Under the pieces are notes generated by a model. That model was not told the DNA's origin, did no database searches, and saw only the letters and a list, made by a program, of their open reading frames with translations. The translations under genes and the position numbers were made by a program. From the IMG/VR virus record IMGVR_UViG_3300009594_000001: DNA of 39,649 nucleotides. The stretch is one strand, 5' to 3'. Origin of the DNA: a virus. Taxonomy: Duplodnaviria > Heunggongvirae > Uroviricota > Caudoviricetes. Below are positions 12,529 through 36,185 of the stretch, piece by piece (positions within the stretch are counted from its first letter, which is position 1; every line of letters begins with the position of its first letter).

Positions 12529-12529
12529 G

Positions 12530-12781
12530 ATGTCATGCAAAGTTGAAAACAGGCTGGCCAACCCGCACGCCTCGTATGACGAAAGAGAGAAGGCGTTCAA
12601 GACCATGTTGGCTATCTTTAAGAAGAGGGTCAGTGAAGCAGGTATCATCTCAGAGTACAAACAGCGGCAGTCTTACGAAAGTAAGGGCGAGAAAGCCAGA
12701 CGCAAGAAGAAAGAATCAGCTTTGGCTCGACAACGGGGAGTAGATGGGAAGAAGGTAAGGGAATACTTTGGAAGAGACTAG
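12530..12781 (+). CDS. rpsU: 30S ribosomal protein bS21 homolog (phage-encoded)
   Basis: MLAIFKKRVSEAGIISEYKQRQSYESKGEKARRKKKES matches the bS21 pattern (LRRFKR...GI..E.R.R..YEKP..KRRRK); AAGGAG upstream. Confidence 0.8.
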   Translation: MSCKVENRLANPHASYDEREKAFKTMLAIFKKRVSEAGIISEYKQRQSYESKGEKARRKKKESALARQRGVDGKKVREYFGRD

Positions 12782-12788
12782 GTGTGAT

Positions 12789-13061
12789 ATGGCAGTAAAA
12801 AAAGAAGGCAACGTGGTCATCATCAGTGCGTCTGTGCGACCCAAGATCAAGCAGATTCTAGATGAGGCTAAATTGAAGACAGGGAAATCAAAGTCGGTTA
12901 TCATCAGTGACTTGGTAAACAAGTACCTGGATTTGGTCGTCAATGATGGCGATGAAGTGCCGGTGATACTACGCATACCTGCCTTGCTCAAGGGAAAACC
13001 AGACGAGCTACGGGATTGGCTAGAAGCTAGAAGCGAAGCCGTCATCAAGGCTCTATCTTGA
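12789..13061 (+). CDS. Small protein, possible ribbon-helix-helix (CopG-like) DNA binder
   Basis: VIISASVRPKIKQILDEAKLKTGKSKSVIISDLVNKYL has a beta-alpha-alpha pattern. Confidence 0.5.
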   Translation: MAVKKEGNVVIISASVRPKIKQILDEAKLKTGKSKSVIISDLVNKYLDLVVNDGDEVPVILRIPALLKGKPDELRDWLEARSEAVIKALS

Positions 13062-13579
13062 TTTGTACCGTTGATTTTGATAAACTTGATTCAATGAAGA
13101 TCGTCAAGTCAGAAGAAATCCCGACCAAGGATTCTATAGTTTCCGTTCCGACCGACCCTCTGATGAAAGTCTACCAGACGTGTCAGGCGATGGAAATCAT
13201 CTGTGAGCGGAATGGCGGCATTGGGCTGTCGGCTGTCCAGGTCGGAATTCCTTGGAAGCTCTTCATAGCCAAGCATGGCGACAAATACAAATACCTCATT
13301 GATTGCGAGTACGAGCCAGTTGGCACAGTTAGATCGACTTCTATAGAGGGATGCTTGTCCTTGCGTGACAGCTTCGGCACGCTACGACATTTCGTAGTGG
13401 AGAGGTTTGATAAGGTGAAGGTCAAGGGCAAGGAATTGCTGTATGAGAAAGACCTTGAGTTGGTGGATATGGATGTCGAACTCGGTGGTCTAGATGGTAT
13501 ACTGTACCAACACGAAATCGATCATCATCGTGGAATCTTGATTTCTGACTTCGGACACGAGATAGTGGTGTACAAGTAA
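13058..13579 (+). CDS. def: Peptide deformylase
   Basis: All three motifs intact: GIGLSAVQVG, EGCLS, QHEIDH; start is TTG 13058 or ATG 13094. Confidence 0.93.
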   Translation: MICTVDFDKLDSMKIVKSEEIPTKDSIVSVPTDPLMKVYQTCQAMEIICERNGGIGLSAVQVGIPWKLFIAKHGDKYKYLIDCEYEPVGTVRSTSIEGCLSLRDSFGTLRHFVVERFDKVKVKGKELLYEKDLELVDMDVELGGLDGILYQHEIDHHRGILISDFGHEIVVYK

Positions 13580-13863
13580 TGCTTTCAAAACTTCAATTGC
13601 TCAATGTCTGTTTGCTGTACTCAGGAGACCACAAAAAGTGCCGGTATCTGTCGCAGGATCACCAGGACTATAATAAGTGGTACTGCATCAAGCACAAGCC
13701 CGCCGAGAAGGATAAGGTGGATCAAACTATCCAAGATTTCATTAGTGACTGCAAAAAGAAGGGCCTCGACCCGTATTCTCAGGGTGTGGCCCTCGGTGAT
13801 AACTGTGCCGGGTATCCAGTCCTTCGCTACATCGAGCAGGGATATGACAAGGACAAGAACTGA
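13579..13863 (+). CDS. Hypothetical Cys-containing protein
   Basis: 94-aa ORF, TAATG coupling to def. Confidence 0.65.
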   Translation: MLSKLQLLNVCLLYSGDHKKCRYLSQDHQDYNKWYCIKHKPAEKDKVDQTIQDFISDCKKKGLDPYSQGVALGDNCAGYPVLRYIEQGYDKDKN

Positions 13864-13940
13864 TGGACTGGTTGATCCTCTTCAACCTGTTTTTCGCAAT
13901 ATACAATTTCGTTTTCTGGGGTATATTTAGGAATAAGCTA

Positions 13941-14480
13941 TCACTCGTCTGCGGCCTGCTCTCGCTGACGGTAACACTTGTACTGATTCTGGCTCTTTAC
14001 CATTAGGTGGTAAACCTGATCCTCGACATTCGAGTTCATGGCAGCCATAAACACGTTGTCGTTCAGGTCCACGTCGTTGTAGTTCGCTATTTGTTGAGCC
14101 ATGATTTCCGCCGTCTTGGTTTGTTTGAGAGCTTGGGAGCGGTAGTATAAGACGAGTAACATGCCGATTACGATAGTAGCAAAAACGGCTACCAGGGCAC
14201 CGTCGCCTTGTAGAATCTGAACGCCGCTGTTTTGATTGTTTTTGTTGTAGTTGATGAGGCCGTTTTGCAAGTTCTGAATATCCCTTGCATTGATGTCGTT
14301 TTGTTGACGTAGATTAAGCAAGTCCAACATGAGGCCGTTTTGGTTGTTCTTGATGTCATCTATCTTGCCATTTTGGTTTTGCAATTCTTGCTTCAGTTCT
14401 GGGCTTAGTGGACTGAACCTTCCACACCCGCTCAGTGTCAATGTTGTGAGTATTGCGAATATAGTTAAAATCCTTTTCAT
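13941..14480 (-). CDS. Lipoprotein with coiled coil and internal TM helix (u-spanin-like topology)
   Basis: Start reassigned to ATG 14480 (GGAGG SD); signal MKRILTIFAILTTLTLSGC with lipobox LSGC; TM ALVAVFATIVIGMLLVLYY; 179 aa. Confidence 0.75.
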   Translation of the reverse strand: MKRILTIFAILTTLTLSGCGRFSPLSPELKQELQNQNGKIDDIKNNQNGLMLDLLNLRQQNDINARDIQNLQNGLINYNKNNQNSGVQILQGDGALVAVFATIVIGMLLVLYYRSQALKQTKTAEIMAQQIANYNDVDLNDNVFMAAMNSNVEDQVYHLMVKSQNQYKCYRQREQAADE

Positions 14481-14519
14481 TCGAGCCTCCGACTTGCTAG
14501 AGTTTTCTAAAAGTATGTA

Positions 14520-14548
14520 TTGCCAGACCCGGCGAATTTCGGTAGAAT
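14520..14548 (+). promoter_or_regulatory. sigma70-type promoter for the operon that includes IDO
   Basis: TTGCCA (14520-14525), 17-nt spacer, TAGAAT (14543-14548). Confidence 0.7.
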
Positions 14549-14610
14549 GAGTCGTTCTCTCGTCGGGTATGTTGTGAGGGAACTTCCTCCAAGACTGAGG
14601 AGCAAAGTGT

Positions 14611-15081
14611 ATGACTAAATTCCTCGTTAGGAGTGACGAAGAGATCGACATGGAGGACGGCTGCCAACTGGAAGAGCCGCCAGCAGAACAAGAGGAGACC
14701 TGTCCAGAGATTCTCGATGAGACTTTCTTCGGGGATTTCCTTCTCGATATCCAAGCCACGATTCGAGACCTGATCGACCGGTTCTTCGTAGGACGAGAGA
14801 TGTACTGTGGCGGCGAGATTCCGAAGTCGGTTCTACATGCCGATGAGTACGTGTCGCTGGTCCTGAACACAGATGTCATCAACGGCATGGATATCGTGTA
14901 TGATGCGATTGCCCGCTCCGGGCAGTATCAAACCGAATTCGAGCATGGCGTCTCCGATGACGTGAAACACGTCATCGACCTGATTCACGAGATCAAAGGC
15001 TTCGGCGTGCCCAAGCCTTTCATCACTGGCATCCTTCTCATGTACCTAGAGCTTTGCGAAGGAATGAGTGTAACTGAGTGA
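14611..15081 (+). CDS. Hypothetical acidic protein
   Basis: 156-aa ORF with GAGGAG SD. Confidence 0.7.
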   Translation: MTKFLVRSDEEIDMEDGCQLEEPPAEQEETCPEILDETFFGDFLLDIQATIRDLIDRFFVGREMYCGGEIPKSVLHADEYVSLVLNTDVINGMDIVYDAIARSGQYQTEFEHGVSDDVKHVIDLIHEIKGFGVPKPFITGILLMYLELCEGMSVTE

Positions 15082-15383
15082 GTGCCAGCGATCAGGATAT
15101 AGCCCTTGTGTCTGGGAGCTTCTTCGAGAAGGGCGTTCCCAAGAACAAGCGGTATTTACTAAAATACTTTGACAGTGAAGTGGCTGCGGTTTTTGTAAGT
15201 TACTTTTTGATTTTCCGAAGCCACACGCACTTTGTAGACCACACAGGATTCAGGGTCGGCAAGCGTTGGCTGCGGAAGTCTCAAGAACGCATAGATAGGC
15301 TGGAGAATGCATATGGCAAAGCGAGGAGTGCCGGTGACTTTAGTGCTGTGGCCGAGATTGAATCTGGGAGATACAATCTATGA
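15078..15383 (+). CDS. Hypothetical protein
   Basis: 101 aa, GTGA and ATGA overlaps at its two ends. Confidence 0.65.
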   Translation: MSASDQDIALVSGSFFEKGVPKNKRYLLKYFDSEVAAVFVSYFLIFRSHTHFVDHTGFRVGKRWLRKSQERIDRLENAYGKARSAGDFSAVAEIESGRYNL

Positions 15384-16504
15384 GCCTTTGGAGAATCTGG
15401 AGAGACGGCTTCCTGCCGTTCCATGACCCTGCCTGCCAACTACATGAAGACCTCCCTGCCTCTCAACAGGTCGAGAAACTAGCTGCCGATCTACCAGCAT
15501 TGGTTGCTGAGGGCACCATTCGACAAGAGCTAGTATCACGTCTCTCCTCGATCTCCGAACTCGAATTTTTCACTTTCTTTGACTGCCTGCCAGGTTTGCA
15601 GGGGTACGCCGAGAGAGCCATGATGCTCTTTTCGTACTTCGCTAGTTCCTATATCCACGCTCCAGGCCAACCAACTGCTACGATTCTCCCCAAGGAAATA
15701 AGTTTACCATTGGTGAGGCTGTCCGAGATCGTCGGACGCCCACCGATTCTCTCTTATGCTTCCTATTGTCTTTTTAATTGGGAGCGGTTGGAATACGACA
15801 AGCCCATTGAACTAGGCAACATCAAACTCCTTCAGAACTTTACATTGGATGAAGGACGACGTGATGAAAATTGGTTTGTCTTGGTACATGTAGATATCGA
15901 GGCTAAGGCAGGTCCAGGGATTGCAGCTATCTCGTACATGATGGACAAGTGGCGTGGCTGTCCTTTGGACGACCCTCTGGCCGAAGTGTATTCCAGTCTC
16001 GACGCCATGTACAAAACCCTTTGCCGGATGCCAGAGGAGTGTAGTCCCGATGTTTATTTTAGCAGAGTTCGGCCCTACATCTTCAGTTACGAGAATATGG
16101 TCTATGAAGGGTGGAGGCCAGAACCACTGACTTATCGAGGCGAGACCGGTGCCCAGAGTTCCGTAATCCCAGCATTTCAGATTGCCCTGGGGGTTCAGCA
16201 CAAGAATAGTATGCTTACGGAGCATTTAAGGGACATGCGGAAATACATGCCTCCAGAGCATCGAAGATGGCTCGCTAATCTAGAAAATCTGGGAACCGAT
16301 TTTAGGCAATATGCTATTAAGTTCGGGGAAAAGGAATTGTATAATAAGTGCCTTGGACGGTTGATCGATTTCAGGAAGAAACACTTGGAGTACGCTATAG
16401 AGTACATCCAGAAGAAAGTCGATAATCCAACTGGTACTGGCGGGACGCCCTACATTAGATGGCTCTCTCAGCTAGTTCAAGAGACTGAGGAGTTCTATCT
16501 ATGA
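15380..16504 (+). CDS. Indoleamine 2,3-dioxygenase (bacterial-type heme tryptophan dioxygenase)
   Basis: ENWFVLVHVDIE, RVRPYI, RGETGAQSS, MRKYMP.EHR, FRKKH (proximal His) and GTGGT are all IDO-family hallmarks. Confidence 0.88.
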   Translation: MSLWRIWRDGFLPFHDPACQLHEDLPASQQVEKLAADLPALVAEGTIRQELVSRLSSISELEFFTFFDCLPGLQGYAERAMMLFSYFASSYIHAPGQPTATILPKEISLPLVRLSEIVGRPPILSYASYCLFNWERLEYDKPIELGNIKLLQNFTLDEGRRDENWFVLVHVDIEAKAGPGIAAISYMMDKWRGCPLDDPLAEVYSSLDAMYKTLCRMPEECSPDVYFSRVRPYIFSYENMVYEGWRPEPLTYRGETGAQSSVIPAFQIALGVQHKNSMLTEHLRDMRKYMPPEHRRWLANLENLGTDFRQYAIKFGEKELYNKCLGRLIDFRKKHLEYAIEYIQKKVDNPTGTGGTPYIRWLSQLVQETEEFYL

Positions 16505-16734
16505 ATCGCTTCCTGACCTTGGCGACCCTAGACCGCCTTCGAGTTCTAGAAGGTCGTCTAACTGAATCCAAAGCAAAAACACAATTGTTGGAACTCAAGT
16601 TAGACGATCCCGATCTCTCCACAGACGACGTTTTTAACATATCTTCTAGTCTTGAAATTATTGAGGCAGATATGATAGACTGTCTCAATAATGTCCTGCT
16701 TGTAGAGCAGGAAGTCGGCCAAATTCTTTGCTAA
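16501..16734 (+). CDS. Hypothetical coiled-coil protein
   Basis: 77 aa, ATGA overlap. Confidence 0.6.
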   Translation: MNRFLTLATLDRLRVLEGRLTESKAKTQLLELKLDDPDLSTDDVFNISSSLEIIEADMIDCLNNVLLVEQEVGQILC

Positions 16735-16752
16735 CTTCAGATATATACATCC

Positions 16753-16947
16753 ATGATGAAATTCATGGATTGGTTTGTTGCTAGAGAAAGCACAGCCAGG
16801 AAGAGAGCGAAGGAAAACTTCTGCAAGTTTGCTGACAAGGATGCTCCTTGGCCGGGCGGAAATCCGCACGATGGGAACACCGGTAGTCAGGATTTGGTCG
16901 ATAAGTTCAAAAAAGCTGAACGCAAGACCAAGAAGAAAAACCGGTAG
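16753..16947 (+). CDS. Small basic protein; C-terminus altered by the 61-bp duplication
   Basis: MMKFMDWFVARE...; removing one repeat copy restores the ending KTKKKKCDD* (stop at 17014). Confidence 0.55.
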   Translation: MMKFMDWFVARESTARKRAKENFCKFADKDAPWPGGNPHDGNTGSQDLVDKFKKAERKTKKKNR

Positions 16948-17001
16948 TCAGGATTTGGTCGATAAGTTCAAAAAAGCTGAACGCAAGACCAAGAAGAAAA
17001 A
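16880..17001. repeat. Exact 61-bp tandem duplication
   Basis: CCGGTAGTCAGG...CAAGAAGAAAAA at 16880-16940 and 16941-17001. Confidence 0.95.
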
Positions 17002-17367
17002 ATGCGACGACTAACCGTACTTGTTTGGGTTGGCTTTTTCATGTTCATCGTGGTCTTAGTGGCGGCGATAGACATGTATTGGTCCATCAAGGTAGGCCCA
17101 GCCTTGCAGCAAACCGAGGAAAATCCTGTAGGCAGGCTCCTCATCAAAATCGACGGCGGCTCTTCAGCCCTGTTTATGTCAGTGAAGATGGTGGGAACTC
17201 TATTAGTGGTTCTCGCTATAATTTGGCTCTGCAATTATAGGCGGTGGTGGGCCTTTACCGTGTCACTGGTCCTGGCGGTGATGCAGGTGTCTTTGCTACT
17301 GTACCTGTACGGTGTCATTCCAGATATCCCGTCATTGCTGAGATCGTCAGCTACACTAAGGAGATGA
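17002..17367 (+). CDS. Small membrane protein, DUF5658-like
   Basis: Three hydrophobic segments; D.Y.S...EENPVGRLL...LFMSVK pattern. Confidence 0.55.
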   Translation: MRRLTVLVWVGFFMFIVVLVAAIDMYWSIKVGPALQQTEENPVGRLLIKIDGGSSALFMSVKMVGTLLVVLAIIWLCNYRRWWAFTVSLVLAVMQVSLLLYLYGVIPDIPSLLRSSATLRR

Positions 17368-17368
17368 T

Positions 17369-17806
17369 ATGACTAAAGAGATAGAAGAATCTGAAGTCAT
17401 AGCGGATGCCCAAGGCAATGACGATTTCCGCCATCAGCTACGGCTGCAAATTACTTCCGACGCCACATACGTAGTAATGCTATCAGTCAGCGACCGTGAT
17501 GATGAGAATGTCATAAGGAAGTTGACTGCAAAGAGGGGCGTTCCATTGGTGCCCTATGCGTACAATCAGGTCAGCGAGCATTACAACGTGCGATGTGTTG
17601 ACTACATGCCTTTAGGGGCCGTCCCGGTCGGCTTTCAGTTGACGCTTCCTGGCGTGTCGTTTTGGAAGGTCCGAGTGCCAATGCCAGAGGACGTGTTGGA
17701 GCGGTTTCTGACCCACGAGCAGAAGCAGGAGGCAGAGGGATTCAAGAACGCTGCTAGGGAAGCCAACCTGAAGGTAGAATACCTCCAGATGGTAAGTTGT
17801 TTCTGA
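17369..17806 (+). CDS. Hypothetical protein
   Basis: 145 aa, AAGGAG SD. Confidence 0.7.
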   Translation: MTKEIEESEVIADAQGNDDFRHQLRLQITSDATYVVMLSVSDRDDENVIRKLTAKRGVPLVPYAYNQVSEHYNVRCVDYMPLGAVPVGFQLTLPGVSFWKVRVPMPEDVLERFLTHEQKQEAEGFKNAAREANLKVEYLQMVSCF

Positions 17807-18339
17807 TGCTAAAGTTTATCTATGTCGGAGATCATGGGTCTAACCGAGATAAGTTCATTCAGAAGGTAAACAAACAAGCCGGAAAGGGCAATTGGTTCTT
17901 CGCCTTCCGAGCCGGGAAGAAACTGTATTCTTGGAATTGGGGTATGCAACTCTATGAGGATGCATACCTTTCTTTTTTAGGCAAGGATATCAACCTTGTC
18001 AAAAAGCTAGTTTCTGCTTGCGATGTCTGCGAAATCAATAACAAAGACCTTGATGCCTATCTTGACTACAAAAAGCAGAAACACGACAGAGATCATTATC
18101 AGGACATAGCGATTCGCCGATGTCTAGTTCGGTTGGGCGTCTGGTTCAAAGGAACCGACCTTTTAAGTGTACCGGGCACCGAGTTCGACCATTCCAAGAT
18201 ACCATTTCACTTGCCACATTTATTGCGGAAGCCAGATTCTTTGAAATCTATTAAGTCATGGCTAGATGGGAATCACTTGTTAGTGATTGCCTCATCTAGC
18301 GAAGACAAGGCAGAGCTTGCAGGAATCATGGTAAACTGA
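17806..18339 (+). CDS. Hypothetical protein
   Basis: TGATG coupling; ATG 17806 preferred as start. Confidence 0.65.
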   Translation: MLKFIYVGDHGSNRDKFIQKVNKQAGKGNWFFAFRAGKKLYSWNWGMQLYEDAYLSFLGKDINLVKKLVSACDVCEINNKDLDAYLDYKKQKHDRDHYQDIAIRRCLVRLGVWFKGTDLLSVPGTEFDHSKIPFHLPHLLRKPDSLKSIKSWLDGNHLLVIASSSEDKAELAGIMVN

Positions 18340-18363
18340 TACCATCCTGTCAGGAGATTACAA

Positions 18364-18885
18364 ATGAGTAAGAGAAAACCCAGAGACGTTCCAAGCCGAG
18401 ATGACTACTACATGGGTCTAGCTTTTTGGATTGCCTCCAAATCGAAAGACCCAGACACCCAGGTGGGTGGCTTGATCGTGAGTGCGGCAAATCGGCCCCT
18501 TGGTTGGGGCTATAACGGACCCCCACAGCAGATCAGGGACGAGGATATAGATTGGTCTCGTCCAGAGAAATACGATTGGGTTGAACACGCCGAAGAGAAT
18601 GCCATCGATCACTCCAGAGGCATGGACCTTACTGGTTCTACGCTGTATGTGATCGCCTCGCCGTGCAAGAATTGTATGCGAAAGATCGTTAAGGCTGGGA
18701 TCAGGCGAGTGGTTTACTTCCCCATCAAGCCCTCCGAAGGGTCTTCTATCAACCAAACCCAAATAAGCAAGTCCGAGGAGATTGCACATGCCGGGCACGT
18801 CCAGTTGGAGCGATTCAAAGGCAACCTTAACTGGATGCGAGATCGCATGAAGTGGATGGAGAGTGTGGGGGTGTTCAATGTATAG
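18364..18885 (+). CDS. dCMP deaminase (ComEB/T4 cd family)
   Basis: SKDPDTQVG, GYNG, HAEENAI and SPCKNC zinc motifs. Confidence 0.92.
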   Translation: MSKRKPRDVPSRDDYYMGLAFWIASKSKDPDTQVGGLIVSAANRPLGWGYNGPPQQIRDEDIDWSRPEKYDWVEHAEENAIDHSRGMDLTGSTLYVIASPCKNCMRKIVKAGIRRVVYFPIKPSEGSSINQTQISKSEEIAHAGHVQLERFKGNLNWMRDRMKWMESVGVFNV

Positions 18886-19255
18886 TCTTGTTTTACTCAA
18901 GCCAGATGCGGTCGAAAACACGATGGTCGGCGATCTGATAGGACGTTTCGAGCGACACTTCTCAATCGCCGGTCTCAAGTGGGTCAAAATGAATACGGAC
19001 TTGTGCAAGAAGCACTATCGGGAGCATGTAGGAAAAGATTTCTACCCAGGTCTGGAAAAGTTTATGACTAGTGGTCCGACCGTGGCGTTGGCGATGGAAG
19101 GCGACGTTTCCCTGGTTAGACGCTTAGGAATGATGTTGCGGATCGAGTTTAACCCAGACTACGCTGGTGGTCCACGGAATCTAATCCACGCCTCTGATGG
19201 TCCTGAATCTGCGGCTCGTGAGATAGCCTTGTGGTTTCCTGAACTGGTCTCCTAA
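18878..19255 (+). CDS. ndk: Nucleoside diphosphate kinase with shortened Kpn loop
   Basis: LKPDAV, HY.EH.GK.FY and RNLIHASD (catalytic His); start reassigned to ATG 18878. Confidence 0.9.
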   Translation: MYSLVLLKPDAVENTMVGDLIGRFERHFSIAGLKWVKMNTDLCKKHYREHVGKDFYPGLEKFMTSGPTVALAMEGDVSLVRRLGMMLRIEFNPDYAGGPRNLIHASDGPESAAREIALWFPELVS

Positions 19256-19258
19256 ATA
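19253..19258 (+). promoter_or_regulatory. Putative late-promoter box TAAATA
   Basis: 5 nt before ATG 19264; overlaps the ndk stop codon; same motif recurs before other genes. Confidence 0.5.
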
Positions 19259-19263
19259 CAGGT

Positions 19264-20127
19264 ATGGGAATCACAGGAGTACGAGTCGGGGTTTCTTGCT
19301 CACCAAAGAACAACTGCATTGATGTGCTAGGCTGCCCGAAAGGGGTATGTCCAGACTTCACCATTCGTCGCCATGATACGCAACCGCCATTTCGAGTCTT
19401 GGTTGAAGATTGCGATGGTCTTCTAGACCTTACCAGCGAACACTTAATCCTCGAAGTCAATATGTGGGCCAAAGCCAAACTGAAAAAGGCTATCACTGCC
19501 TGCGAAGATTACTTTGCTTTGGCTGACAACATAGGATTTGACCAGATTATGGTCGGTGATGTAATCATCATGGATCGTGTCAGAAATCCAGAGAGAATGT
19601 TGGTAACTGCTTTTGATGAGCAGAATAAACTTGTCAAAGTACAGAGAGGTCATCAGAACACAGAGTCTTCCGCTTGGAAAAAGGGCACCACAATGAAGAT
19701 CATGCGAGTGATTTCAGCGGCGGCGTCCATTGAAAGTGAGCGTCAGGATGTGCTACAGATTGACGGCACCACAGCCGAAGACCAATTGATTGCTACCTAT
19801 CTAGTACACAATTGGAAAGCGAACGATGTTTGTCTTCCTGGCTGTTACTGGCTGGAGTTCAAGTTGCTCAAGATGATAGATTTGGACCCCGATGGTGATG
19901 GTATATCTATTTCGTTGCCCAATCTGTTGTTTACATGCCCCGAAGTACCTAGTATAGTTTCTTGCGATCCAACTATATCCAACGTACCTAGTTTCACTCC
20001 AAGCACTATACCGGAGTGCCTGGGATGCTTTCTAGGTGATGGAGTAGAATGGATTCGTAGATTTCCAATTGAGGGCGAGGGCTTCTTAATCAAAATAGTT
20101 GATTCGCCAACAAAAGAGCTTGTATAA
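19264..20127 (+). CDS. Probable virion protein, BppU/baseplate-N-like
   Basis: FTIRRHDTQPPFRVLVEDCDGLLDLT...YWLEFKL resembles the GDT.P...D..G..DLTG...Y..EF baseplate Ig-like domain. Confidence 0.45.
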   Translation: MGITGVRVGVSCSPKNNCIDVLGCPKGVCPDFTIRRHDTQPPFRVLVEDCDGLLDLTSEHLILEVNMWAKAKLKKAITACEDYFALADNIGFDQIMVGDVIIMDRVRNPERMLVTAFDEQNKLVKVQRGHQNTESSAWKKGTTMKIMRVISAAASIESERQDVLQIDGTTAEDQLIATYLVHNWKANDVCLPGCYWLEFKLLKMIDLDPDGDGISISLPNLLFTCPEVPSIVSCDPTISNVPSFTPSTIPECLGCFLGDGVEWIRRFPIEGEGFLIKIVDSPTKELV

Positions 20128-20143
20128 TTTGGGAGGAGAGCCA

Positions 20144-21775
20144 ATGCCAAGTGTAGCTGATTTCCTAATTGAACGGCTGGCGAATTCTGGAGTCAAACAT
20201 GTGTTTGGCGTGCCAGGAGACTATGTACTTGGTTTTTATAAGAGACTAAGCGACTCACCAGATGTTGAAATAATCAATACAACAGATGAAAATCATGCTG
20301 GCTTTGCGGCAGACGCATATGCTCGTGTGCATGGGATTGGTGCTGTGTGCGTTACCTATAACGTCGGGGCACTGAAAATTGCCAACGCTGTCGCTTGTGC
20401 TTACGCCGAACGCTCCCCCATAGTTGTCATTTCTGGTTCCCCTGGGTTGAAGGAACGAGACGAAGGGTTCTTGTTGCACCACATGGTTCGCTCTTTCGAG
20501 TGCCAGAGGAAGGTCTTTGAGAACATTACCTGTGCCTCGGTTGTGTTGGACGACCTCGGCAAGGCTGGATATGCAATAGACCGGGTTCTTTGTGCCTTAC
20601 AGCACTACAAGCAACCCGTATACATTGAATTGCCTCGTGACGTGGCTGAAAAACCTGTGGGTTACGATGTATACACTCAGGGCACGCCTTCACTTCCCCA
20701 AACAGACGTGCAGAATCTTGAGGAAGCCCTGGCAGAGACCGTTCAGTGGATCGAGTCGGCCAAGAAGCCGGTGATCCTGGCCGGTGTCCAGCTTGCGAGA
20801 TATGGTCTCGGCACCGATCTAGTCAAGTTTGCCGAGAAGAAGAATATTCCTATACTCACCGATTTGTCGAGTAAGTCGGTGGTCAGTGAGAAACATCGGT
20901 TATTTGCTGGCTCTTACTTGGGTAACGTGAGCAGTCCTACCATTCGGCAATTGGTGGATGAATCAGACTGCATCCTCATGTTTGGGGTGCTGTTGACCGA
21001 TATGACGCTTTGTTTCAGACCAGTGAAATTCAGTATGAGGAATACTGTATCTTGTTCTGTAGAGGGGCTGAAGGTTAGAAACCATCTTTACGAAAATGTA
21101 CACTTCAAGGATTTTTGCACAGCCTTGTTCAAAGCCGAAGTCACTGTACAACCCAAGGGAGAGGGTTTCCCCAAGAAAGACATACCGTCATTTGTGCCCA
21201 GGGCAGATAAGAAGATCACTGTGATCAGGCTTTTCGAGAAGATAAATTCAATTCTCAACGACAATTATTCTATAATCGCCGATATCGGAGACTCGCTTTT
21301 CGGTGCTTCCGACTTGACGGTGCATAACAAAAATACCTTCCTTGGAAGTGCGTTTTATGCTAGTATGGGCTACGCTATCCCCGGTGCTTTGGGCATGAGT
21401 ATTGCCCAGCCGGACAAGCGGGTTATCGTCGTGGTTGGCGATGGAGCTTTCCAGATGTCGTGCACCGAGCTAAGTACGCTCGTTGCCAAAAAGCTCAATT
21501 CTATAATCTTTGTTTTGAACAATAGGGGGTATACTACCGAAAGGTTCCTGATAGACGGGCCTTTCAACGATGTGCCGAACTGGAACTACCACAAGATCAC
21601 TGAAACCATCTGTGGTGGCAAGGGTGTTCTAGTCGATTCAGAAGAAGGTTTGGAGAGAGCGGTCGCCGATGCCCTGAAGAGCCGAGAACTATTCATTATT
21701 AACGTCATGCTCGATCCAATGGATATTTCTCCAGCGTTGAAAAGGATGACCGACAGCCTTTCTCAAAGGATGTAG
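20144..21775 (+). CDS. TPP-dependent 2-keto-acid decarboxylase (pyruvate/indolepyruvate decarboxylase family)
   Basis: FGVPGDY, TDENHAGFAADAYAR, LLHHM, GDGAFQM...NNRGYTTER; start reassigned to ATG 20144 with GGAGG SD. Confidence 0.92.
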   Translation: MPSVADFLIERLANSGVKHVFGVPGDYVLGFYKRLSDSPDVEIINTTDENHAGFAADAYARVHGIGAVCVTYNVGALKIANAVACAYAERSPIVVISGSPGLKERDEGFLLHHMVRSFECQRKVFENITCASVVLDDLGKAGYAIDRVLCALQHYKQPVYIELPRDVAEKPVGYDVYTQGTPSLPQTDVQNLEEALAETVQWIESAKKPVILAGVQLARYGLGTDLVKFAEKKNIPILTDLSSKSVVSEKHRLFAGSYLGNVSSPTIRQLVDESDCILMFGVLLTDMTLCFRPVKFSMRNTVSCSVEGLKVRNHLYENVHFKDFCTALFKAEVTVQPKGEGFPKKDIPSFVPRADKKITVIRLFEKINSILNDNYSIIADIGDSLFGASDLTVHNKNTFLGSAFYASMGYAIPGALGMSIAQPDKRVIVVVGDGAFQMSCTELSTLVAKKLNSIIFVLNNRGYTTERFLIDGPFNDVPNWNYHKITETICGGKGVLVDSEEGLERAVADALKSRELFIINVMLDPMDISPALKRMTDSLSQRM

Positions 21776-21783
21776 TGTTTTCC

Positions 21784-22386
21784 ATGAAGCCTTACAAATT
21801 CCATAGGGATAACCGTGGTCCAAGCAACAGAGTCAATGAGCAGATTAGGCTGTCGCCGATCTTGCTCATTGACGAAAACGGAAATAAAGTTGGCGTTATT
21901 TCTAATAGAGATGCGTTAGCTAAAGCTAGAGAAGTAGGGTTGGACTTAGTAGAAGTCTCGCCGAATGTGCGTCCGCCTGTCTGTCGTATCATGGACTATG
22001 GCAAGTTTAAGTACGAGCAGAGCATCAAGGAGAAGAAGCAGAAACCGAAAGCATCTCAGGTCAAGGAAGTCAGATTCCGACCGTCCATTGGGGATGCCGA
22101 TGTCCAGACAAAGATACGTTCTATACGGAGCTTCTTGGAGGACGGACAGAAGGTTCAGATTCGCCTGGAGTTCAAAGCCAGGGAAAATGCACACAAAGAC
22201 CTGGGGTACGAGGTAGTTAAGAAGGTCACGGAGGCCGTGGCTGATATCGCCACTACTACTATGCCTCGGTCGGAGGGAAGATTTCTCTCCTGTTTAATTG
22301 AACTCAAGAGGAAATCGATTGGTGGAAAAGATGAATTACTTTCCGAAGCCCAAAGGGACAAGGGAGTTAGTACAGGAAACGCATGA
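21784..22386 (+). CDS. infC: Translation initiation factor IF-3
   Basis: RVNEQIR, GLDLVEVSP...PPVCRIMDYGKFKYEQ, VKEVRFRPSIG..D...K, FLEDGQKV. Confidence 0.93.
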   Translation: MKPYKFHRDNRGPSNRVNEQIRLSPILLIDENGNKVGVISNRDALAKAREVGLDLVEVSPNVRPPVCRIMDYGKFKYEQSIKEKKQKPKASQVKEVRFRPSIGDADVQTKIRSIRSFLEDGQKVQIRLEFKARENAHKDLGYEVVKKVTEAVADIATTTMPRSEGRFLSCLIELKRKSIGGKDELLSEAQRDKGVSTGNA

Positions 22387-23584
22387 GAAGGCTCTGGCCG
22401 CTGTGTTTGCTCCTAGTGAGAAGGTAGACACTCCATCTTCCCCTGGCATTCCTCTTCTAAGAACGATCCTTGAGAAACCAGAGGCCGCTAGGCAAGCACT
22501 TCTAGGCGATTTTGGAGATCGCCTCTTTGACTTCGCTAGCTCGATTGATCTCAAGCACCCCGACGTATTGCAAAACACAATTCTAGACGGTACGTTGGGC
22601 GGTGAATTCTCTACCAAGATTCAGCAGTTGTTCGCACTTTACGAGTTTGCGTCTGAGAGAGACCTGACCACAGTGATACCATGCATCGTAAAGGTAGCTC
22701 TGACACGCATAGAGAAGGAACTAAAGGCCATTGGCTCGCCATATGATAATCAGCAATTGGTGCGACTACTACCGACTCGTGAAGAAAGAGATGTAGTTCG
22801 CAAGACGAAAGAGGTACGAGATATACGTCTGGGGTACTACCTCAAGAAAGGCGAATCGGTTTGGGCCGGGCTACCTACTACTTTTGACATGTTTATCCGG
22901 CATAGCACCCTTTACAGGCAGGAAGTAGACAAAGCCAAGAAGAAGGCCGATAAGTTTGCTTCGCTTGGATGTGTGAGCATGGCTAAGGTGGTCGAGGACT
23001 CCATAGCTTCGTTTTCCGAGAAAATCGGTGATAGTCACTATGGTTTCCACCGAGTTACATTGGCAAATGCGGCTTTAATTGCGGCCAAGATGTATAAGTT
23101 TCCCATCAACTTCAAGACACCGGAAACTCTCAAGGTGCCGAAGGACTTTTTTGGCTACGATCTACATCCGTGCAAGGGCGATGTGATTGTGTCTAAGCGG
23201 GGCAGCCGCACGCCGCACATGATCGGGACTCTAGCCCCTTCACTAATGGACTATGCCCCTCGTGTCTATCCGGTGCATAGGTTGGTTAAAACAATGTCCA
23301 ATCAAATGCTCAAAGTGCTAGACCGCTTGGAGTCTTTTCCAGAAGCCGATGACAAATCTTTGTTCGATCATTACTTGGTCGTCGTGCCAAGTGTCAGGTG
23401 CCCGAAAGATATGGACAACAAGCTCAGTTTCTATGAGCGAAATGCGAAAACTAGGTCCGTCTTCAAAAACGAAAAGGAAGCAAATGAGGCTTTGGACATA
23501 CATCTAATCACCATAGGCACCGTTCACCCGCTTCTGTTGGGGGAGAAGGACGGTAAGTGCTACTTTATTTCGTATTGGAGATAG
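22331..23584 (+). CDS. Hypothetical protein
   Basis: About 417 aa from ATG 22331, overlapping the infC 3' end. Confidence 0.75.
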   Translation: MNYFPKPKGTRELVQETHEKALAAVFAPSEKVDTPSSPGIPLLRTILEKPEAARQALLGDFGDRLFDFASSIDLKHPDVLQNTILDGTLGGEFSTKIQQLFALYEFASERDLTTVIPCIVKVALTRIEKELKAIGSPYDNQQLVRLLPTREERDVVRKTKEVRDIRLGYYLKKGESVWAGLPTTFDMFIRHSTLYRQEVDKAKKKADKFASLGCVSMAKVVEDSIASFSEKIGDSHYGFHRVTLANAALIAAKMYKFPINFKTPETLKVPKDFFGYDLHPCKGDVIVSKRGSRTPHMIGTLAPSLMDYAPRVYPVHRLVKTMSNQMLKVLDRLESFPEADDKSLFDHYLVVVPSVRCPKDMDNKLSFYERNAKTRSVFKNEKEANEALDIHLITIGTVHPLLLGEKDGKCYFISYWR

Positions 23585-23691
23585 TATGGCTGTTACATTG
23601 ACAGAACGTGTGGTTAAGGAACTCAAGCACATCATCCAAGAACAACACGCCAATGAGCCGGAAATCTACATCCGTGCTGGCGTGAGAGGGG

Positions 23692-24450: not shown

Positions 24451-24685
24451 GGTTGTAGCGGCTTCCAGTATAACTTTAGCTTGGATGAATACTTCGATGA
24501 GACCAAAGATGTTATGACAGAACAGGACGGACTCAAGGTGGTTGTCGATAAGCGGTCGATGATGTACATCGATGGGACCACTATCGATTTTCATGACTCG
24601 TTAGACAAACGGGGATTCGTTTTCAATAACCCATCTGTCAAAACCACCTGCTGTTGCGGTTCTAGTTTCTCTATGTGAGGAACCT

Positions 24686-28872: not shown

Positions 28873-29226
28873 ATGAACGAGAGCATTATGAACAACAAAT
28901 TGCTATGGATAGTGATTGCGTTGGGCGTAGTTCTGGTTGGCGTGTTTGTTGGTGGTCCGATCTTGATTGACCGAATCAGTCAGAAGGTCATCAACAAGAT
29001 GCAGAAGGAATACTCTCCTGGGCCATATGCTCCTGGGTTTGACCCGGATCGTATTGATCCTAGATTTTTCCAAGGGCAACCAAAAAGCCCGCCGCCCGGT
29101 TGGACTCCCCCAACTTCGCCTTCCACAAGCCCATCTTTTGGCTCGATAGCAACTCCCAAGAGAGGGGATACATTGCCATCGCCTGATGAATGGAATAAGA
29201 TGTGGGAAAAGTATAGGGGCGACTAG
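28873..29226 (+). CDS. Membrane-anchored Pro-rich hypothetical protein
   Basis: N-terminal TM segment; TAAATA (28843-28848) then AGGAGG upstream. Confidence 0.65.
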   Translation: MNESIMNNKLLWIVIALGVVLVGVFVGGPILIDRISQKVINKMQKEYSPGPYAPGFDPDRIDPRFFQGQPKSPPPGWTPPTSPSTSPSFGSIATPKRGDTLPSPDEWNKMWEKYRGD

Positions 29227-29609
29227 TAGCAGTAACAGCTTTGTACTTGCGATGGGAGTAACGATCTATCGTTACTCCGTCGCTGGAAAGTCACGGTCAT
29301 CTTCTTGCCCGGTTGCGGTTCACTCCCACCAATTCTCTTGAACTCATCCCAGCTAAGATATAGCTTCGTTCCATCGTCTAGTGATATGCGAATGGGGTTT
29401 TTATTCCTTTCTACCACTCTGATAACTGACGTTCTCTTTACGGTTGGTATGTCCTTGGGAATGATTAGATCGACCGAAGGGAGCTTCGAGCCTGCTTCGC
29501 TGCGACTAACAGCAGATGATAGAAATGCAGTAGTAGCACGGTCGTTGTGGGTGCCGACAGTATTCATTTCGCACTGCAACATGTACTCTTTGAAATTTAG
29601 TTCTACCAT
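29223..29609 (-). CDS. Hypothetical protein with FKEY capsid-targeting-like N-terminus
   Basis: Start reassigned to ATG 29609 (MVELNFKEYMLQCE); TAAATA 5 nt upstream. Confidence 0.65.
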   Translation of the reverse strand: MVELNFKEYMLQCEMNTVGTHNDRATTAFLSSAVSRSEAGSKLPSVDLIIPKDIPTVKRTSVIRVVERNKNPIRISLDDGTKLYLSWDEFKRIGGSEPQPGKKMTVTFQRRSNDRSLLPSQVQSCYCY

Positions 29610-29635
29610 CACTCTATTTATGGCGAAGGAGCCAA

Positions 29636-34178: not shown

Positions 34179-34616
34179 TTATTCTGGAAGAGCTTTAATG
34201 AACCTGGACCACTCTGGATGGTTATGTATAACATCCTGGTGATTTGCATATTCGTTGGCATAAGCCATACAGAATAGTTCCTCGTTGTTCTGGTCTTGTT
34301 TGTTCTTGGTACGCTTGACTATCTGCGTCCAAGCCTTTCGCATATCTTTATCGACTAGGTACTTCCAGACGGTATGGCCTATCTCATGTAGAAACGTGAA
34401 TTCCCTGCCATAGTTCCAGGGGGCGGCGATGGTGATGGTTTTCTTTTTTTCGTCTATGAACCCGACATTCTCGCCATCGCTTAGGGTTGGGGAGGATATA
34501 AACTTGAATTTGTAGCTCTTGACCAAGGCACGATGTCTCTTGGGCAGTTTCTTCAGCGTTTCTTTAGCATTGTTTTCGTAGGTGTCAGCCCGCTCCAAGA
34601 ATTCTTTGAAATTCAT
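34179..34616 (-). CDS. HExxH zinc-metallopeptidase-like protein with MNFKEFLE N-terminus
   Basis: FLHEIGHTVW and downstream NEELFC; TACATA 4 nt before the ATG. Confidence 0.7.
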   Translation of the reverse strand: MNFKEFLERADTYENNAKETLKKLPKRHRALVKSYKFKFISSPTLSDGENVGFIDEKKKTITIAAPWNYGREFTFLHEIGHTVWKYLVDKDMRKAWTQIVKRTKNKQDQNNEELFCMAYANEYANHQDVIHNHPEWSRFIKALPE

Positions 34617-34686
34617 ATCCTATGTAGAAGGAAAAGGCTAGAAAAAGCTAACCCTTCTGGCTATACTACATAGGCGACTTGTTTGA

Positions 34687-34914: not shown

Positions 34915-34919
34915 AGAAG

Positions 34920-34953
34920 AGCCGCCAGATACGAAGCTGGCGGCTATTTTTTT
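34920..34953 (+). terminator. Intrinsic terminator
   Basis: AGCCGCCAG-ATACGAAG-CTGGCGGCT-ATTTTTTT. Confidence 0.85.
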
Positions 34954-34984
34954 GAAATCCACCACCCACGGATACATATCACAT

Positions 34985-35662
34985 ATGAAGAAAGCTAAGG
35001 GCGAAGAATCTACTTCTAGCAAAAGCTCGAAGATCAAATTCCATCTAGAATTCCTCACCGCCGCACAGAAACTAGCCTGGGCAGCCTTCCAAGAGCATGA
35101 TGTGCTATTTTTGACCGGCCCAGCAGGTGTTGGCAAAAGCCATCTGGCAATGGCTTTTGCTATTAACGAAGTCCTGCAAAAGAAGAAGAAGTGGATCATT
35201 TTGACACGTCCCATTGTCGAAGCTGGCGAGAGTCTAGGATATCTACCTGGAGATTTCTACGAGAAGGTCAATCCCTATATGTTGCCTCTATACGATTGTA
35301 TGAGGCGATTGTTGGGGGTAGATGGCCCGCAAAGGGAGATCATCGATCGTAGTATAGAAATCGCTCCGATAGCGTATATGAGGGGCCGTACTTTTGATGA
35401 CGCAACTTGTATATTTGACGAAGCCCAAAACGCTACGATGTCGCAACTCAGGCTGTTCCTTAGTAGGTTTGGCGAGAACAGCAAGATCGTTATTACTGGA
35501 GACCCAGATCAATCGGACCTACCAACCAATATCTCTGGGTTCGTAGATGTTATGCGTAGGCTGGAGGCGGTTCCAGGTGTGGGCATTGTTGAATTTAAGC
35601 CAGATCAGATCGTTCGGCATCCTCTAGTCGGGCAAATTTTGGACCGCTTGAAGGATAAATAA
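34985..35662 (+). CDS. phoH: PhoH family ATPase
   Basis: GPAGVGKS, LTRPIVEAGESLGYLPG, YMRGRTF, DEAQN, GDPDQSD; start reassigned to ATG 34985. Confidence 0.95.
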   Translation: MKKAKGEESTSSKSSKIKFHLEFLTAAQKLAWAAFQEHDVLFLTGPAGVGKSHLAMAFAINEVLQKKKKWIILTRPIVEAGESLGYLPGDFYEKVNPYMLPLYDCMRRLLGVDGPQREIIDRSIEIAPIAYMRGRTFDDATCIFDEAQNATMSQLRLFLSRFGENSKIVITGDPDQSDLPTNISGFVDVMRRLEAVPGVGIVEFKPDQIVRHPLVGQILDRLKDK

Positions 35663-35683
35663 ACTAGAGGAGAACCAATACTT

Positions 35684-36115
35684 ATGGCAATGTCTAATTA
35701 CTTGGAAGAGCAGCTTCTAAACCATATCTTCCGCACTAACACCTTCCCGAAACCAGCTACGATGGCTATCGCATTACTTACGGCAGCAGCAGTAGATACA
35801 GATACAGGAGCTTTGACCGGAAAGGAAGTCGCCAACTCTTTTGGCTACGCTAGACAGACCCTAAACCCATTGGATGGTAACTGGAAAAACCCGGCTAGCC
35901 CAACGCAGGGCGAAACGGACAATCTGAGTGCAATTACGTTTGGCCCGGCTAGCGGCGGTAATTGGGGCACGGTCGTAGGTGTGGCCCTTTGCGACAGTTC
36001 GGCACATGGCGGCGGGAATTTGCTGTTCTATGGTTTGCTAACTACCTCGAAAGTGGTCAACGATGGCGACACGTTTAAGTTCAACATCGGAGACCTCAAC
36101 ATTCAGTTAGACTAA
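35684..36115 (+). CDS. Phage tail/virion-associated beta-sandwich protein
   Basis: MSNYLEEQLLNH...GYARQ...N...ITF..A..NWGTV..VAL.DS...GN.L.YG.L...K.V..GD...F..G.L pattern common in phage tail modules. Confidence 0.7.
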   Translation: MAMSNYLEEQLLNHIFRTNTFPKPATMAIALLTAAAVDTDTGALTGKEVANSFGYARQTLNPLDGNWKNPASPTQGETDNLSAITFGPASGGNWGTVVGVALCDSSAHGGGNLLFYGLLTTSKVVNDGDTFKFNIGDLNIQLD

Positions 36116-36165: not shown

Positions 36166-36185
36166 TTCTGGAGAGTAAATAAGAC

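What the first reader, a model, noticed from the sequence alone, without database searches (positions are those of the whole stretch)
12530..22386. Possible translation-initiation takeover system: bS21 + PDF + IF3 alongside two classes of mRNA 5' ends
Seen: rpsU, def and infC within 10 kb. Many genes have strong SD sequences (GGAGG/AAGGAG), while a second class has a TAnATA box only 4-6 nt before the ATG and mostly no usable SD. Known: in E. coli, IF3 level discriminates against leaderless initiation, bS21 supports SD-led initiation, and PDF processes nascent N-termini. Inferred: the phage may supply its own initiation components to tune SD-led versus near-leaderless late mRNAs. I am not aware of this coupling having been described as a system.
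Basis: partly seen in the sequence, partly recalled or inferred. Interest (0 to 1): 0.78.

Follow-up and report, generated by a model that had tools for sequence, protein, structure and literature searches.

The report
Huge-phage translation genes, leaderless promoter class
A 436-kb groundwater phage carries its own ribosomal protein S21, peptide deformylase and initiation factor IF3, and about 25 of its genes begin 4-5 bases after a strict TAnATA promoter box and so probably give messages with no ribosome-binding leader; a working link between the two is not shown.

Summary
Observation confirmed. bS21 (12530-12781), PDF (13058-13579) and IF3 (21775-22386) are intact single-copy genes on a 436-kb IMG/VR huge phage.

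- **Two 5' classes are real.** About 63% of genes have a Shine-Dalgarno site. In 25 genes TAnATA lies 4-5 nt before the ATG (16 and 7 at first call, 0.29 expected each). These 25 all use ATG, have a pyrimidine at -1, and only 2 carry an SD 4-mer.
- **The box behaves as a promoter.** When it lies 14-40 nt upstream, an SD follows. Orthologues switch between the leaderless and leadered forms. It precedes fibre-like, spanin-like and capsid-targeting-like genes, and the terminase gene of a 572-kb relative, so it is probably a late promoter.
- **The gene block is conserved** in 11 related phages. IF3 always follows a gene headed by this box.

Interpretation partly supported. IF3 looks orthodox, published work reports that excess IF3 inhibits leaderless translation, one IF3-bearing huge phage lacks any such class, and no RNA data exist. 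Huge-phage translation genes (Al-Shayeb 2020) and leaderless late phage mRNAs tied to IF2/IF3 balance (phiYS40) are already published. This scan noted the same pattern earlier on other DNA. Verdict: a new variant of known kinds.

The parts
12530..12781 (+). bS21 (rpsU) homologue, 83 aa, SD-led (AAGGAG 7 nt upstream), about 12 extra N-terminal residues
   Evidence: Pfam PF01165 33.5 bits; weak PDB matches to plastid and bacterial bS21; orthologue in all 11 clade loci
12768..13061 (+). Ribbon-helix-helix (CopG-like) protein, conserved between bS21 and PDF
   Evidence: Pfam RHH_1 20.5 bits, at the cut-off; syntenic in all clade loci
13058..13579 (+). Peptide deformylase; the real start is probably the ATG near 13094
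   Evidence: Pfam PF01327 68.3 bits; motifs GIGLSAVQ, EGCLS, HEIDH present; relatives align from residue 11-15 onward
16742..16947 (+). TATATA box (16742-16747), 5-nt spacer, ATG 16753; 64-aa protein starting MMKFMDWFVARES (capsid-targeting-like)
   Evidence: orthologues in L004, L006 and L007 keep a box 5-6 nt before the ATG
19253..20127 (+). TAAATA box (19253-19258; its TAA is the stop codon of ndk), 5-nt spacer, ATG 19264; 287-aa beta-rich protein of unknown function that heads the IF3 operon
   Evidence: AlphaFold pLDDT 66; only weak fold matches, to phage virion proteins, TM about 0.25
20144..21775 (+). Thiamine-pyrophosphate enzyme, SD-led (GGAGGTGA); its stop TAG overlaps the IF3 GTG
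   Evidence: Pfam TPP_enzyme N, M and C domains; present in 9 of 11 clade loci, absent in L119 and L121
21775..22386 (+). IF3 (infC), N and C domains; start GTG 21775 or ATG 21784, not ATT; about 23 extra C-terminal residues
   Evidence: Pfam; 152 bits to solved IF3; alignment A2; start codons across the clade
29223..29620 (-). Gene missed by my caller: TAAATA box (29615-29620), 5-nt spacer, ATG 29609; 128 aa starting MVELNFKEY
34179..34626 (-). TACATA box (34621-34626), 4-nt spacer, ATG 34616; 145 aa starting MNFKEFLERAD
34973..35662 (+). TACATA box (34973-34978), 6-nt spacer, ATG 34985; PhoH-like ATPase
36176..38969 (+). TAAATA box (36176-36181), 4-nt spacer, ATG 36186; 927-aa ORF with a Ser-rich N-terminus (start uncertain; coding score prefers 36822)
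35656..36115 (+). Leadered use of the same box: TAAATA (35656-35661), 22-nt leader with GGAG, ATG 35684; Gp80 fibre-like protein
   Evidence: Pfam PF23140 118 bits
13941..14519 (-). Leadered use: TACATA (14514-14519), 33-nt leader with SD, ATG 14480; small reverse-strand ORF that the scan's first-reader note e1-5435300 reads as a spanin-like lipoprotein (not checked here)
34667..34672 (+). TACATA box at the 5' edge of the non-coding RNA gene reported earlier at 34662-34953

Best explanation
Two real things overlap here, and I see no evidence that they form one dedicated system.

1. **A conserved block of translation genes.** The block runs gp11389, bS21, RHH, PDF ... dCMP deaminase, u19264, (TPP enzyme), IF3. 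It belongs to a clade of roughly 0.4-0.6-Mb huge phages. It is part of a larger scattered kit: IF1, EF-Tu, an initiator-like tRNA, about 62 tRNAs and a tmRNA. The kit most likely sustains or raises general translation capacity in the infected cell.

2. **A phage-specific promoter.** It consists of a strict TAnATA box with a weak A/T patch 16-18 bp upstream. It probably drives late genes. Transcription should start about 5-6 nt after the box. Where the ATG lies 4-5 nt downstream, as in about 25 genes here and about 54 in a relative, the mRNA begins with AUG and is translated by the leaderless route. Where the box lies further upstream, the leader carries an SD.

IF3 is read from the operon headed by the leaderless gene at 19264, so it is probably made at the same time as the leaderless messages.

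Shown: the genes, the motif statistics, the synteny, and the interchange between leaderless and leadered forms. Inferred: the transcription start position, the late timing, and any effect of the phage factors on either mRNA class.
For: **Genes and kit:**

**Synteny:** the whole block is shared by 11 distinct relatives at about 40-60% amino-acid identity. IF3 lies directly behind u19264, or behind u19264 plus the TPP enzyme, in all of them.

**The box behaves as a promoter**
- Strict motif, 55-fold and 24-fold over chance at 4 and 5 nt.
- Strand-specific: 22 to 0.
- Three times denser between genes than within them.
- SD 4-mer in 2 of 25 genes at 4-5 nt, but in 27 of 36 genes where the box lies 14-40 nt upstream.
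- u19264 orthologues: 8 have the box 4-5 nt from the ATG, 2 have the box plus a 20-30-nt SD leader, 1 has an SD only.
- A box also sits at the 5' edge of a non-coding RNA gene.

**Leaderless features:** only ATG starts, and a pyrimidine at -1 before the A.

**Late timing**
- The box precedes a fibre-like gene and an ORF that a scan note reads as spanin-like.
- 13 of 25 box genes have T4-IP-like capsid-targeting N-termini, against 8 of 541 others.
- The terminase large subunit of relative G005 has TAGATA-N6-ATG.

**Clade-wide:** G005 has 54 such genes against about 2 expected.
Against: - No RNA data exist. The only run holding this DNA is the likely source DNA sample, so no transcription start is mapped.
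- No T4 gp55-like sigma was found, so the polymerase factor that reads the box is unknown. Two sigma70-family genes are candidates.
- A 4-nt spacer is shorter than the usual distance from a -10 box to the start site.
- Known functions in the box class are mixed: methyltransferases, HAD/nucleotidyl transferase, SNase, PhoH. Late timing is therefore not proven for this genome, whose contig lacks the terminase gene.
- Gene starts come from my own crude caller.
Confidence: 0.6

Rival explanations
1. Phage bS21, IF3 (with IF1 and the initiator-like tRNA) and PDF form a coordinated device that shifts host ribosomes between SD-led and leaderless phage mRNAs during infection. For example, un-autoregulated IF3 made late could damp host or early translation, or could set the balance between the two phage classes.
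For: - IF3 follows a gene headed by a TAnATA box in all 11 clade members, even where the TPP enzyme gene is absent.
- Phage infC starts with ATG or GTG and never with the ATT seen in E. coli infC, which by established knowledge underlies IF3 autoregulation.
- In L006 bS21 has its own TAAATA boxes plus an SD leader.
- The genome also encodes IF1 and a tRNA-Met with the C1-A72 initiator mark. A review lists IF1, IF2 and fMet-tRNA as stimulating leaderless translation and IF3 as modulating it (PMC9031893).
- A second, unrelated IF3-bearing lineage (G010) has its own class, GATATA-N8-9-ATG without SD.
- phiYS40 is a precedent for a phage shifting the IF2/IF3 balance in favour of leaderless late mRNAs (PMC3594737).
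Against: - Extra IF3 is reported to inhibit, not favour, leaderless translation (PMC9031893), yet here it would be made together with the leaderless messages.
- The phage IF3 is orthodox, and the residues I inspected vary in the same way in bacterial homologues.
- IF3-bearing phage G014 shows only SD motifs, and other non-clade IF3 phages show no excess of TAnATA-ATG over a reversed-pattern control.
- The same gene switches between leaderless and SD-led forms while the kit stays constant.
- PDF has no known preference for either class.
- I had no baseline of IF3-free huge phages.
Confidence: 0.17
2. TAnATA is not a promoter. It would be an RNA-level signal inside longer transcripts: an A/U-rich translation enhancer, a re-initiation signal after an upstream stop, or an RNase processing site that creates the 5' end.
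For: - The box often contains TAA or TAG, and at 19253 it supplies the stop codon of the upstream ndk gene.
- 7 of 25 box genes lie within 15 nt of an upstream gene on the same strand.
- No transcription start has been mapped.
Against: - 10 of 25 box genes have a divergent upstream neighbour, against 20% of other genes, and the median gap is 40 nt.
- The same box occurs 14-40 nt upstream of SD-led genes and in front of a non-coding RNA gene.
- There is a weak conserved patch 16-18 bp upstream of the box, in DNA that would often be untranscribed.
- The strict requirement for ATG and the pyrimidine-purine step at -1/+1 fit an initiation site.
Confidence: 0.1
3. The pattern is an artefact of gene calling, or of a duplicated cassette (one promoter plus the N-terminal peptide coding region copied many times), rather than a general class.
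For: - About half of the box genes share the FK-x-WL N-terminus, so part of the class could be a paralogous head cassette.
- Starts come from my own caller.
Against: - The enrichment appears with starts chosen from coding potential alone.
- The class includes unrelated enzymes.
- Flanks around the box are not alike.
- The box is kept at orthologous genes across phages that are only 45-60% identical in protein.
- The class recurs in a 40%-GC relative.
Confidence: 0.03

Closest known systems
Translation-gene complement of huge phages (Al-Shayeb et al. 2020, PMC7162821)
   Same: Huge phage with dozens of tRNAs, a tmRNA, IF1, IF3, S21, EF-Tu and PDF. The same hypothesis of intercepting and redirecting host translation. 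S21 with an N-terminal extension.
   Different: That paper does not mention leaderless mRNAs (0 occurrences). It does not describe this syntenic bS21-RHH-PDF ... u19264-IF3 block or its promoter context.
Thermus phage phiYS40: leaderless middle and late mRNAs with altered IF2/IF3 balance (Sevostyanova et al. 2007, as summarised in PMC3594737)
   Same: Many later phage genes have a promoter abutting the start codon. The proposal is that the balance of initiation factors favours these messages.
   Different: phiYS40 is reported to raise host IF2 and lower host IF3. This phage adds its own IF3 and IF1, which is the opposite direction for IF3. The host phylum and the box sequence differ. I could not read the original paper.
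T4 late promoters (TATAAATA, read by gp55 with gp33 and the gp45 clamp)
   Same: A simple A/T box about 5 nt upstream of the start site with no strong -35. L006 carries the exact sequence TATATAAATA. The box is associated with virion, lysis and capsid-targeted internal-protein-like genes.
   Different: The third base of the box is free (A, C, G or T) and there is no TA extension. No gp55 homologue was found. The T4 internal-protein genes have SD leaders, whereas here many messages would be leaderless.
Phage bS21 linked to late-stage replication (Chen et al. 2022, PMC9723584)
   Same: A phage-encoded bS21 retained throughout a clade and thought to act in translation initiation late in infection.
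   Different: In those phages bS21 sits within the structural-gene block. Here it sits with RHH and PDF among metabolic genes. That paper does not mention IF3, PDF or leaderless mRNAs.
Promoter -10 boxes adjacent to ORFs in Deinococcus-Thermus and mycobacteria (PMC12340547, PMC4633059); lambda cI from PRM
   Same: A -10-type box a few bases before an ATG, no SD, and translation from a 5'-terminal AUG.
   Different: Those are host sigma-A promoters with a TANNNT-type box about 6-7 nt from the start. Here the box is phage-specific and strict (TAnATA) at 4-5 nt, alongside a majority of SD-led genes.

Membership tests
Ribosomal protein bS21 (PF01165) | Profile match above the curated cut-off over the two-helix core | tested here: met
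   33.5 bits against a cut-off of 27, residues 25-64; weak matches to solved bS21 chains
Ribosomal protein bS21 (PF01165) | Incorporation into the 30S subunit near the anti-SD helix | not testable with these tools
   Needs ribosome purification or cryo-EM from infected cells
Peptide deformylase (PF01327) | Three metal-binding and catalytic motifs: G-x-G-L-A/S-A-x-Q, E-G-C-L-S, H-E-x-x-H | tested here: met
   GIGLSAVQ, EGCLS and HEIDH aligned to solved PDFs; 68.3 bits
Translation initiation factor IF3 (IF3_N plus IF3_C) | Both domains joined by a Lys-rich linker, with conserved core residues | tested here: met
   106 and 86 bits; 152 bits to full-length solved IF3; 22 invariant columns shared with E. 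coli and planctomycete IF3
Translation initiation factor IF3 (IF3_N plus IF3_C) | Bacterial-type autoregulation through a rare AUU start codon | tested here: not met
   Clade infC genes start with ATG or GTG; E. coli infC reads ATT. This is a regulatory feature, not a requirement for family membership.
T4-type late transcription system | Promoter TATAAATA centred near -10 with no -35 element | tested here: inconclusive
   The box is TAnATA with a free third base. The exact TATAAATA occurs in L006 only. There is a weak W-rich patch 16-18 bp upstream.
T4-type late transcription system | gp55-family sigma factor | tested here: not met
   phrog_234 and phrog_12791 give no match at E <= 1 in the 85%-complete contig. 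Two sigma70-family genes are present instead.
Leaderless mRNAs | Primary 5' end at, or within a few nt of, the A of an AUG start; no SD | not testable with these tools
   The sequence is compatible: ATG only, Y at -1, SD 4-mer in 2 of 25. No RNA run holds this DNA.
phiYS40-like strategy (initiation-factor balance favours leaderless late mRNAs) | Later genes leaderless, together with a demonstrated shift of IF2 up and IF3 down | tested here: not met
   A putative leaderless class is present, but the phage adds IF3 and IF1 and I found no IF2. The only GTP_EFTU-family hit is EF-Tu. Factor levels were not measured.

The most novel reading that the evidence does not exclude
In this clade of about 0.5-Mb phages, an un-autoregulated phage IF3 (with IF1, an initiator-like tRNA and bS21) is built into the regulon that produces leaderless late mRNAs, and it acts as a timed switch of initiation mode. 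For instance, it could suppress host or early SD-independent initiation, or set the ratio of packaged internal proteins to structural proteins. That would be a virus-encoded control of which class of mRNA the ribosome starts on.
Probability: 0.15. Interest if true: 0.8.

Novelty: new variant of a known kind. Interest (0 to 1): 0.45.

Why it matters
If the TAnATA genes are truly leaderless, this clade would be a natural case in which one phage runs SD-led and leaderless translation side by side while encoding IF1, IF3, bS21 and an initiator-like tRNA. That would make it a good system for asking what phage-borne initiation factors do, a question open since they were found in 2020. The conserved placement of IF3 behind a promoter-fused gene gives a concrete, testable handle. 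As it stands, the finding mainly adds a well-quantified promoter class and a conserved gene block to known themes.

Tried and rejected
- **RNA evidence:** no RNA holder is listed. The only run that holds window 12400-22399 is a groundwater DNA run that may be the source.
- **Close relatives among deposited phages:** megablast of 12000-23000 against 50,697 phage records found nothing.
- **T4 gp55:** no match.
- **fmt (PF00551):** no match.
- **Terminase in this contig:** tblastn with the G005 TerL and phrog_2 both found nothing. Late timing therefore could not be anchored on this genome's own packaging genes.
- **PHROGs on ten TAnATA-class proteins of this genome:** no family.
- **Sigma70 consensus and terminator scan of 10000-25000:** counts not clearly above shuffled sequence, so uninformative.
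- **Fold of the 19264 protein:** pLDDT 66. Foldseek matches have TM about 0.25, mostly to phage virion proteins. This is too weak for an assignment.
- **Alternative genetic code:** considered because of tRNAs with tca and cta anticodons. The window's genes are closely packed under code 11, so I dropped this.
- **Upstream stop codon as the source of the box:** rejected as a general explanation.
- **IF3 residue comparison:** the positions that differ from E. coli (for example Y107, R116, R129) vary in the same way in bacterial homologues, so nothing is phage-specific.
- **The original phiYS40 paper:** could not be opened.

Full report
**Context.** The window is bases 103048-142696 of a single 435,946-bp IMG/VR virus contig (linear, CheckV 85% complete, 50% GC). 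ARAGORN finds about 62 tRNA genes and a tmRNA. The only sequencing run that holds the region is a groundwater metagenome. The window encodes phage-type replication and auxiliary genes: a DnaE-like polymerase, an intein-bearing AAA protein, DnaJ, dUTPase, endonuclease VII, PhoH, a Gp80 fibre-like protein, IDO, NDK, dCMP deaminase, a TPP enzyme and an aldehyde dehydrogenase.

**The three genes.**
- bS21 (12530-12781), PDF (13058-13579) and IF3 (21775-22386) all pass Pfam's curated thresholds. Each occurs once in the genome.
- PDF keeps its three catalytic motifs.
- IF3 aligns over both domains with solved bacterial IF3 at about 50% identity. Its nearest named cellular homologues are Phycisphaerae and Planctomyces MAG proteins.
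- bS21 is divergent but above threshold, with about 12 extra N-terminal residues.
- The genome also encodes IF1, a three-domain EF-Tu, and a tRNA-Met with the C1-A72 mismatch typical of initiator tRNA. No fmt was found.
- The three genes are therefore part of a wider kit that is scattered along the genome.

**Two classes of 5' ends.** I called 566 genes from coding potential alone.
- SD class: AGGAG-type words pile up 5-8 nt before the starts. 63% of starts pair with the anti-SD at dG <= -4.5 kcal/mol, against 17% of internal ATGs.
- TAnATA class: the box ends exactly 4 nt before 16 starts and 5 nt before 7 starts, against 0.29 expected at any one position. After start refinement the class holds 25 genes.
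- All five fixed bases are needed.
- The signal is strand-specific: 22 sense to 0 antisense.
- All 25 genes start with ATG, although 17% of all genes use GTG or TTG. Only 2 of 25 have an SD 4-mer, against 64% overall.
- Position -1 is a pyrimidine in 25 of 27 sites, and it precedes the A of the ATG. That is the usual pyrimidine-purine step at a transcription start.
- Window members are the starts at 16753, 19264, 29609(-), 34616(-) and 36186, plus 34985 with a 6-nt spacer.

**Why the box is a promoter.**
- TAnATA is under-represented in the genome as a whole: 446 sites, about half the expectation from base composition. It is three times denser between genes than within them.
- Where it lies 14-40 nt before a start, an SD 4-mer follows in 27 of 36 genes. 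In the window these include the Gp80 fibre-like gene at 35684 and the reverse-strand ORF ending at 14480, which a scan note reads as spanin-like.
- A box also sits at the 5' edge of the non-coding RNA gene reported earlier at 34662-34953.
- The strongest evidence is comparative. The orthologues of the gene at 19264 in ten related phages carry the box 4-5 nt from the ATG in seven cases, which makes eight with the window. In two cases they carry the box plus a 20-30-nt leader with an SD (L006 reads TATATAAATA). One has an SD only.
- A weak A/T patch 16-18 bp upstream of the box appears in both genomes that I analysed.
- No gp55-type sigma was found. Two sigma70-family genes are candidates to read the box.

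**Timing.**
- 13 of 25 box genes, against 8 of 541 others, begin with M-x(1-6)-F-K-x-W-L...E. This closely resembles the N-termini of the T4 internal proteins, which I read from the T4 record: IPI MKTFKEF, IPII and IPIII MKTYQEFIAE. In T4 these are capsid-targeting sequences (established knowledge).
- In the complete 572-kb relative G005, 54 genes carry the box 4-5 nt from the start, against about 2 expected.
- In G005, 20 of the 62 genes with a 4-6-nt spacer have the same N-terminal peptide, against 24 of 821 others.
- The large terminase of G005 (phrog_2, E = 4.6e-42) has TAGATA-N6-ATG.
- Together with the fibre-like and spanin-like genes, this points to a late promoter. It remains an inference for this genome, whose contig lacks a terminase gene.

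**The gene block in relatives.**
- gp11389, bS21, RHH, PDF, u13579 ... dCMP deaminase, u19264, TPP enzyme, IF3 and u22298 are syntenic in 11 distinct phage contigs at about 40-60% identity.
- The TPP enzyme gene is missing in two of them. There IF3 follows u19264 directly.
- IF3 therefore always lies in the operon headed by a TAnATA gene. In the window the TPP stop codon overlaps the IF3 GTG.
- Clade infC genes start with ATG or GTG, never with the ATT of E. coli infC. The classical IF3 autoregulation would therefore not apply (established knowledge).

**Is there a coupling?**
- For: the operon position, the loss of the ATT start, and the co-encoded IF1 and initiator-like tRNA. A review lists IF1, IF2 and fMet-tRNA as stimulating leaderless translation and IF3 as modulating it (PMC9031893). 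A second IF3-bearing lineage (G010) has its own class, GATATA-N8-9-ATG without SD.
- Against:
  - High IF3 is reported to inhibit leaderless translation.
  - The phage IF3 shows nothing unusual.
  - The complete IF3-bearing phage G014 has SD motifs only.
  - The other non-clade IF3 phages show no excess of TAnATA-N4-5-ATG over a reversed-pattern control, whereas this genome gives 45 against 18 and G005 gives 90 against 38.
  - The mRNA form of one gene changes among relatives while the kit stays the same.
- I had no IF3-free baseline, so the association is untested.

**Prior knowledge.**
- Al-Shayeb 2020 lists IF1, IF3, S21 and PDF in huge phages and proposes redirection of host translation. 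It does not mention leaderless mRNAs.
- Chen 2022 links phage bS21 to late replication.
- phiYS40 is described as having leaderless middle and late mRNAs, favoured by raised IF2 and lowered IF3.
- Earlier notes of this scan describe the same TAnATA design, the same S21-PDF-IF3 block, and similar pairings of leaderless genes with IF3 on other genomes. They are unchecked leads that agree with what I measured here.

**Verdict.** The promoter and leaderless reading is likely (about 0.6). The takeover-system reading remains a hypothesis (about 0.15-0.2). This is a new variant of known kinds.

Noticed in passing
genome-wide; window 16753-16947 (+), 29223-29609 (-), 34179-34616 (-): A family of about 20 otherwise unrelated proteins begins with M-x(1-6)-F-K-x-W-L...E, like the capsid-targeting N-termini of the T4 internal proteins (IPI MKTFKEF; IPII and IPIII MKTYQEFIAE). 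It occurs in 13 of 25 TAnATA genes against 8 of 541 others here, and in 20 of 62 against 24 of 821 in relative G005. These are candidates for a large set of packaged, injected proteins.
   Followed up: partly
G000 genome 355,000-371,500 (+), outside the window: About 25 consecutive small genes each carry ttgtGTAGTACAGGgcAGGGCGAg, then about 20 nt, then CACGAGGAcc, then 5-7 nt, then ATG. This is a third, stereotyped promoter-plus-leader class with an unusual SD-like word, and it looks like an early-gene cluster.
   Followed up: partly
Relative G005 (L045-L073), positions 429-68,337 and 560,167-572,123, minus strand: 46 copies of AAYCTGTACC followed by exactly 9 nt and ATG, with no SD, all next to the two ends of the terminally redundant genome. 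This is another start-codon-adjacent signal. It is absent from this genome's contig.
   Followed up: partly
G000 genome 149786-149974; about 13,700-14,880; 165134-165208: The phage also encodes IF1, a three-domain EF-Tu, and a tRNA-Met with a C1-A72 mismatch. The tRNA has only two of the three G-C pairs of the initiator anticodon stem.
   Followed up: partly
G000 genome 143545-144114 and 157310-158137: Two sigma70-family genes, one with regions 2 and 4 and one with region 2 only, lie just beyond the window. They are candidates for reading the TAnATA or GTAGTACAGG promoters. No T4 gp55 homologue was found.
   Followed up: partly
G000 genome 191389-191459 and 219242-219319 (c): tRNA-like genes with anticodons tca (reads TGA) and cta (reads TAG). 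These are possible suppressors. The window's genes read well under the standard code.
   Followed up: no
window 19264-22386 and loci L119, L121: The TPP-dependent enzyme gene between u19264 and IF3 is present in 9 clade members and absent in 2. It looks like a cargo gene inserted into, or lost from, an older u19264-IF3 pair.
   Followed up: partly
window 22318-22386: This phage's IF3 has about 23 extra C-terminal residues that no relative has. They overlap the start of the next gene (about 22322).
   Followed up: no
G010 (L094-L111), unrelated IF3-bearing 359-kb phage: 26 genes carry GATATA(T) 8-9 nt before the ATG with no SD. This may be an independent leaderless class with more canonical -10 spacing.
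   Followed up: partly
window 12768-13061: A CopG-type ribbon-helix-helix gene is conserved between bS21 and PDF in all 11 relatives. Its role is unknown; it could be a regulator of the block.
   Followed up: no
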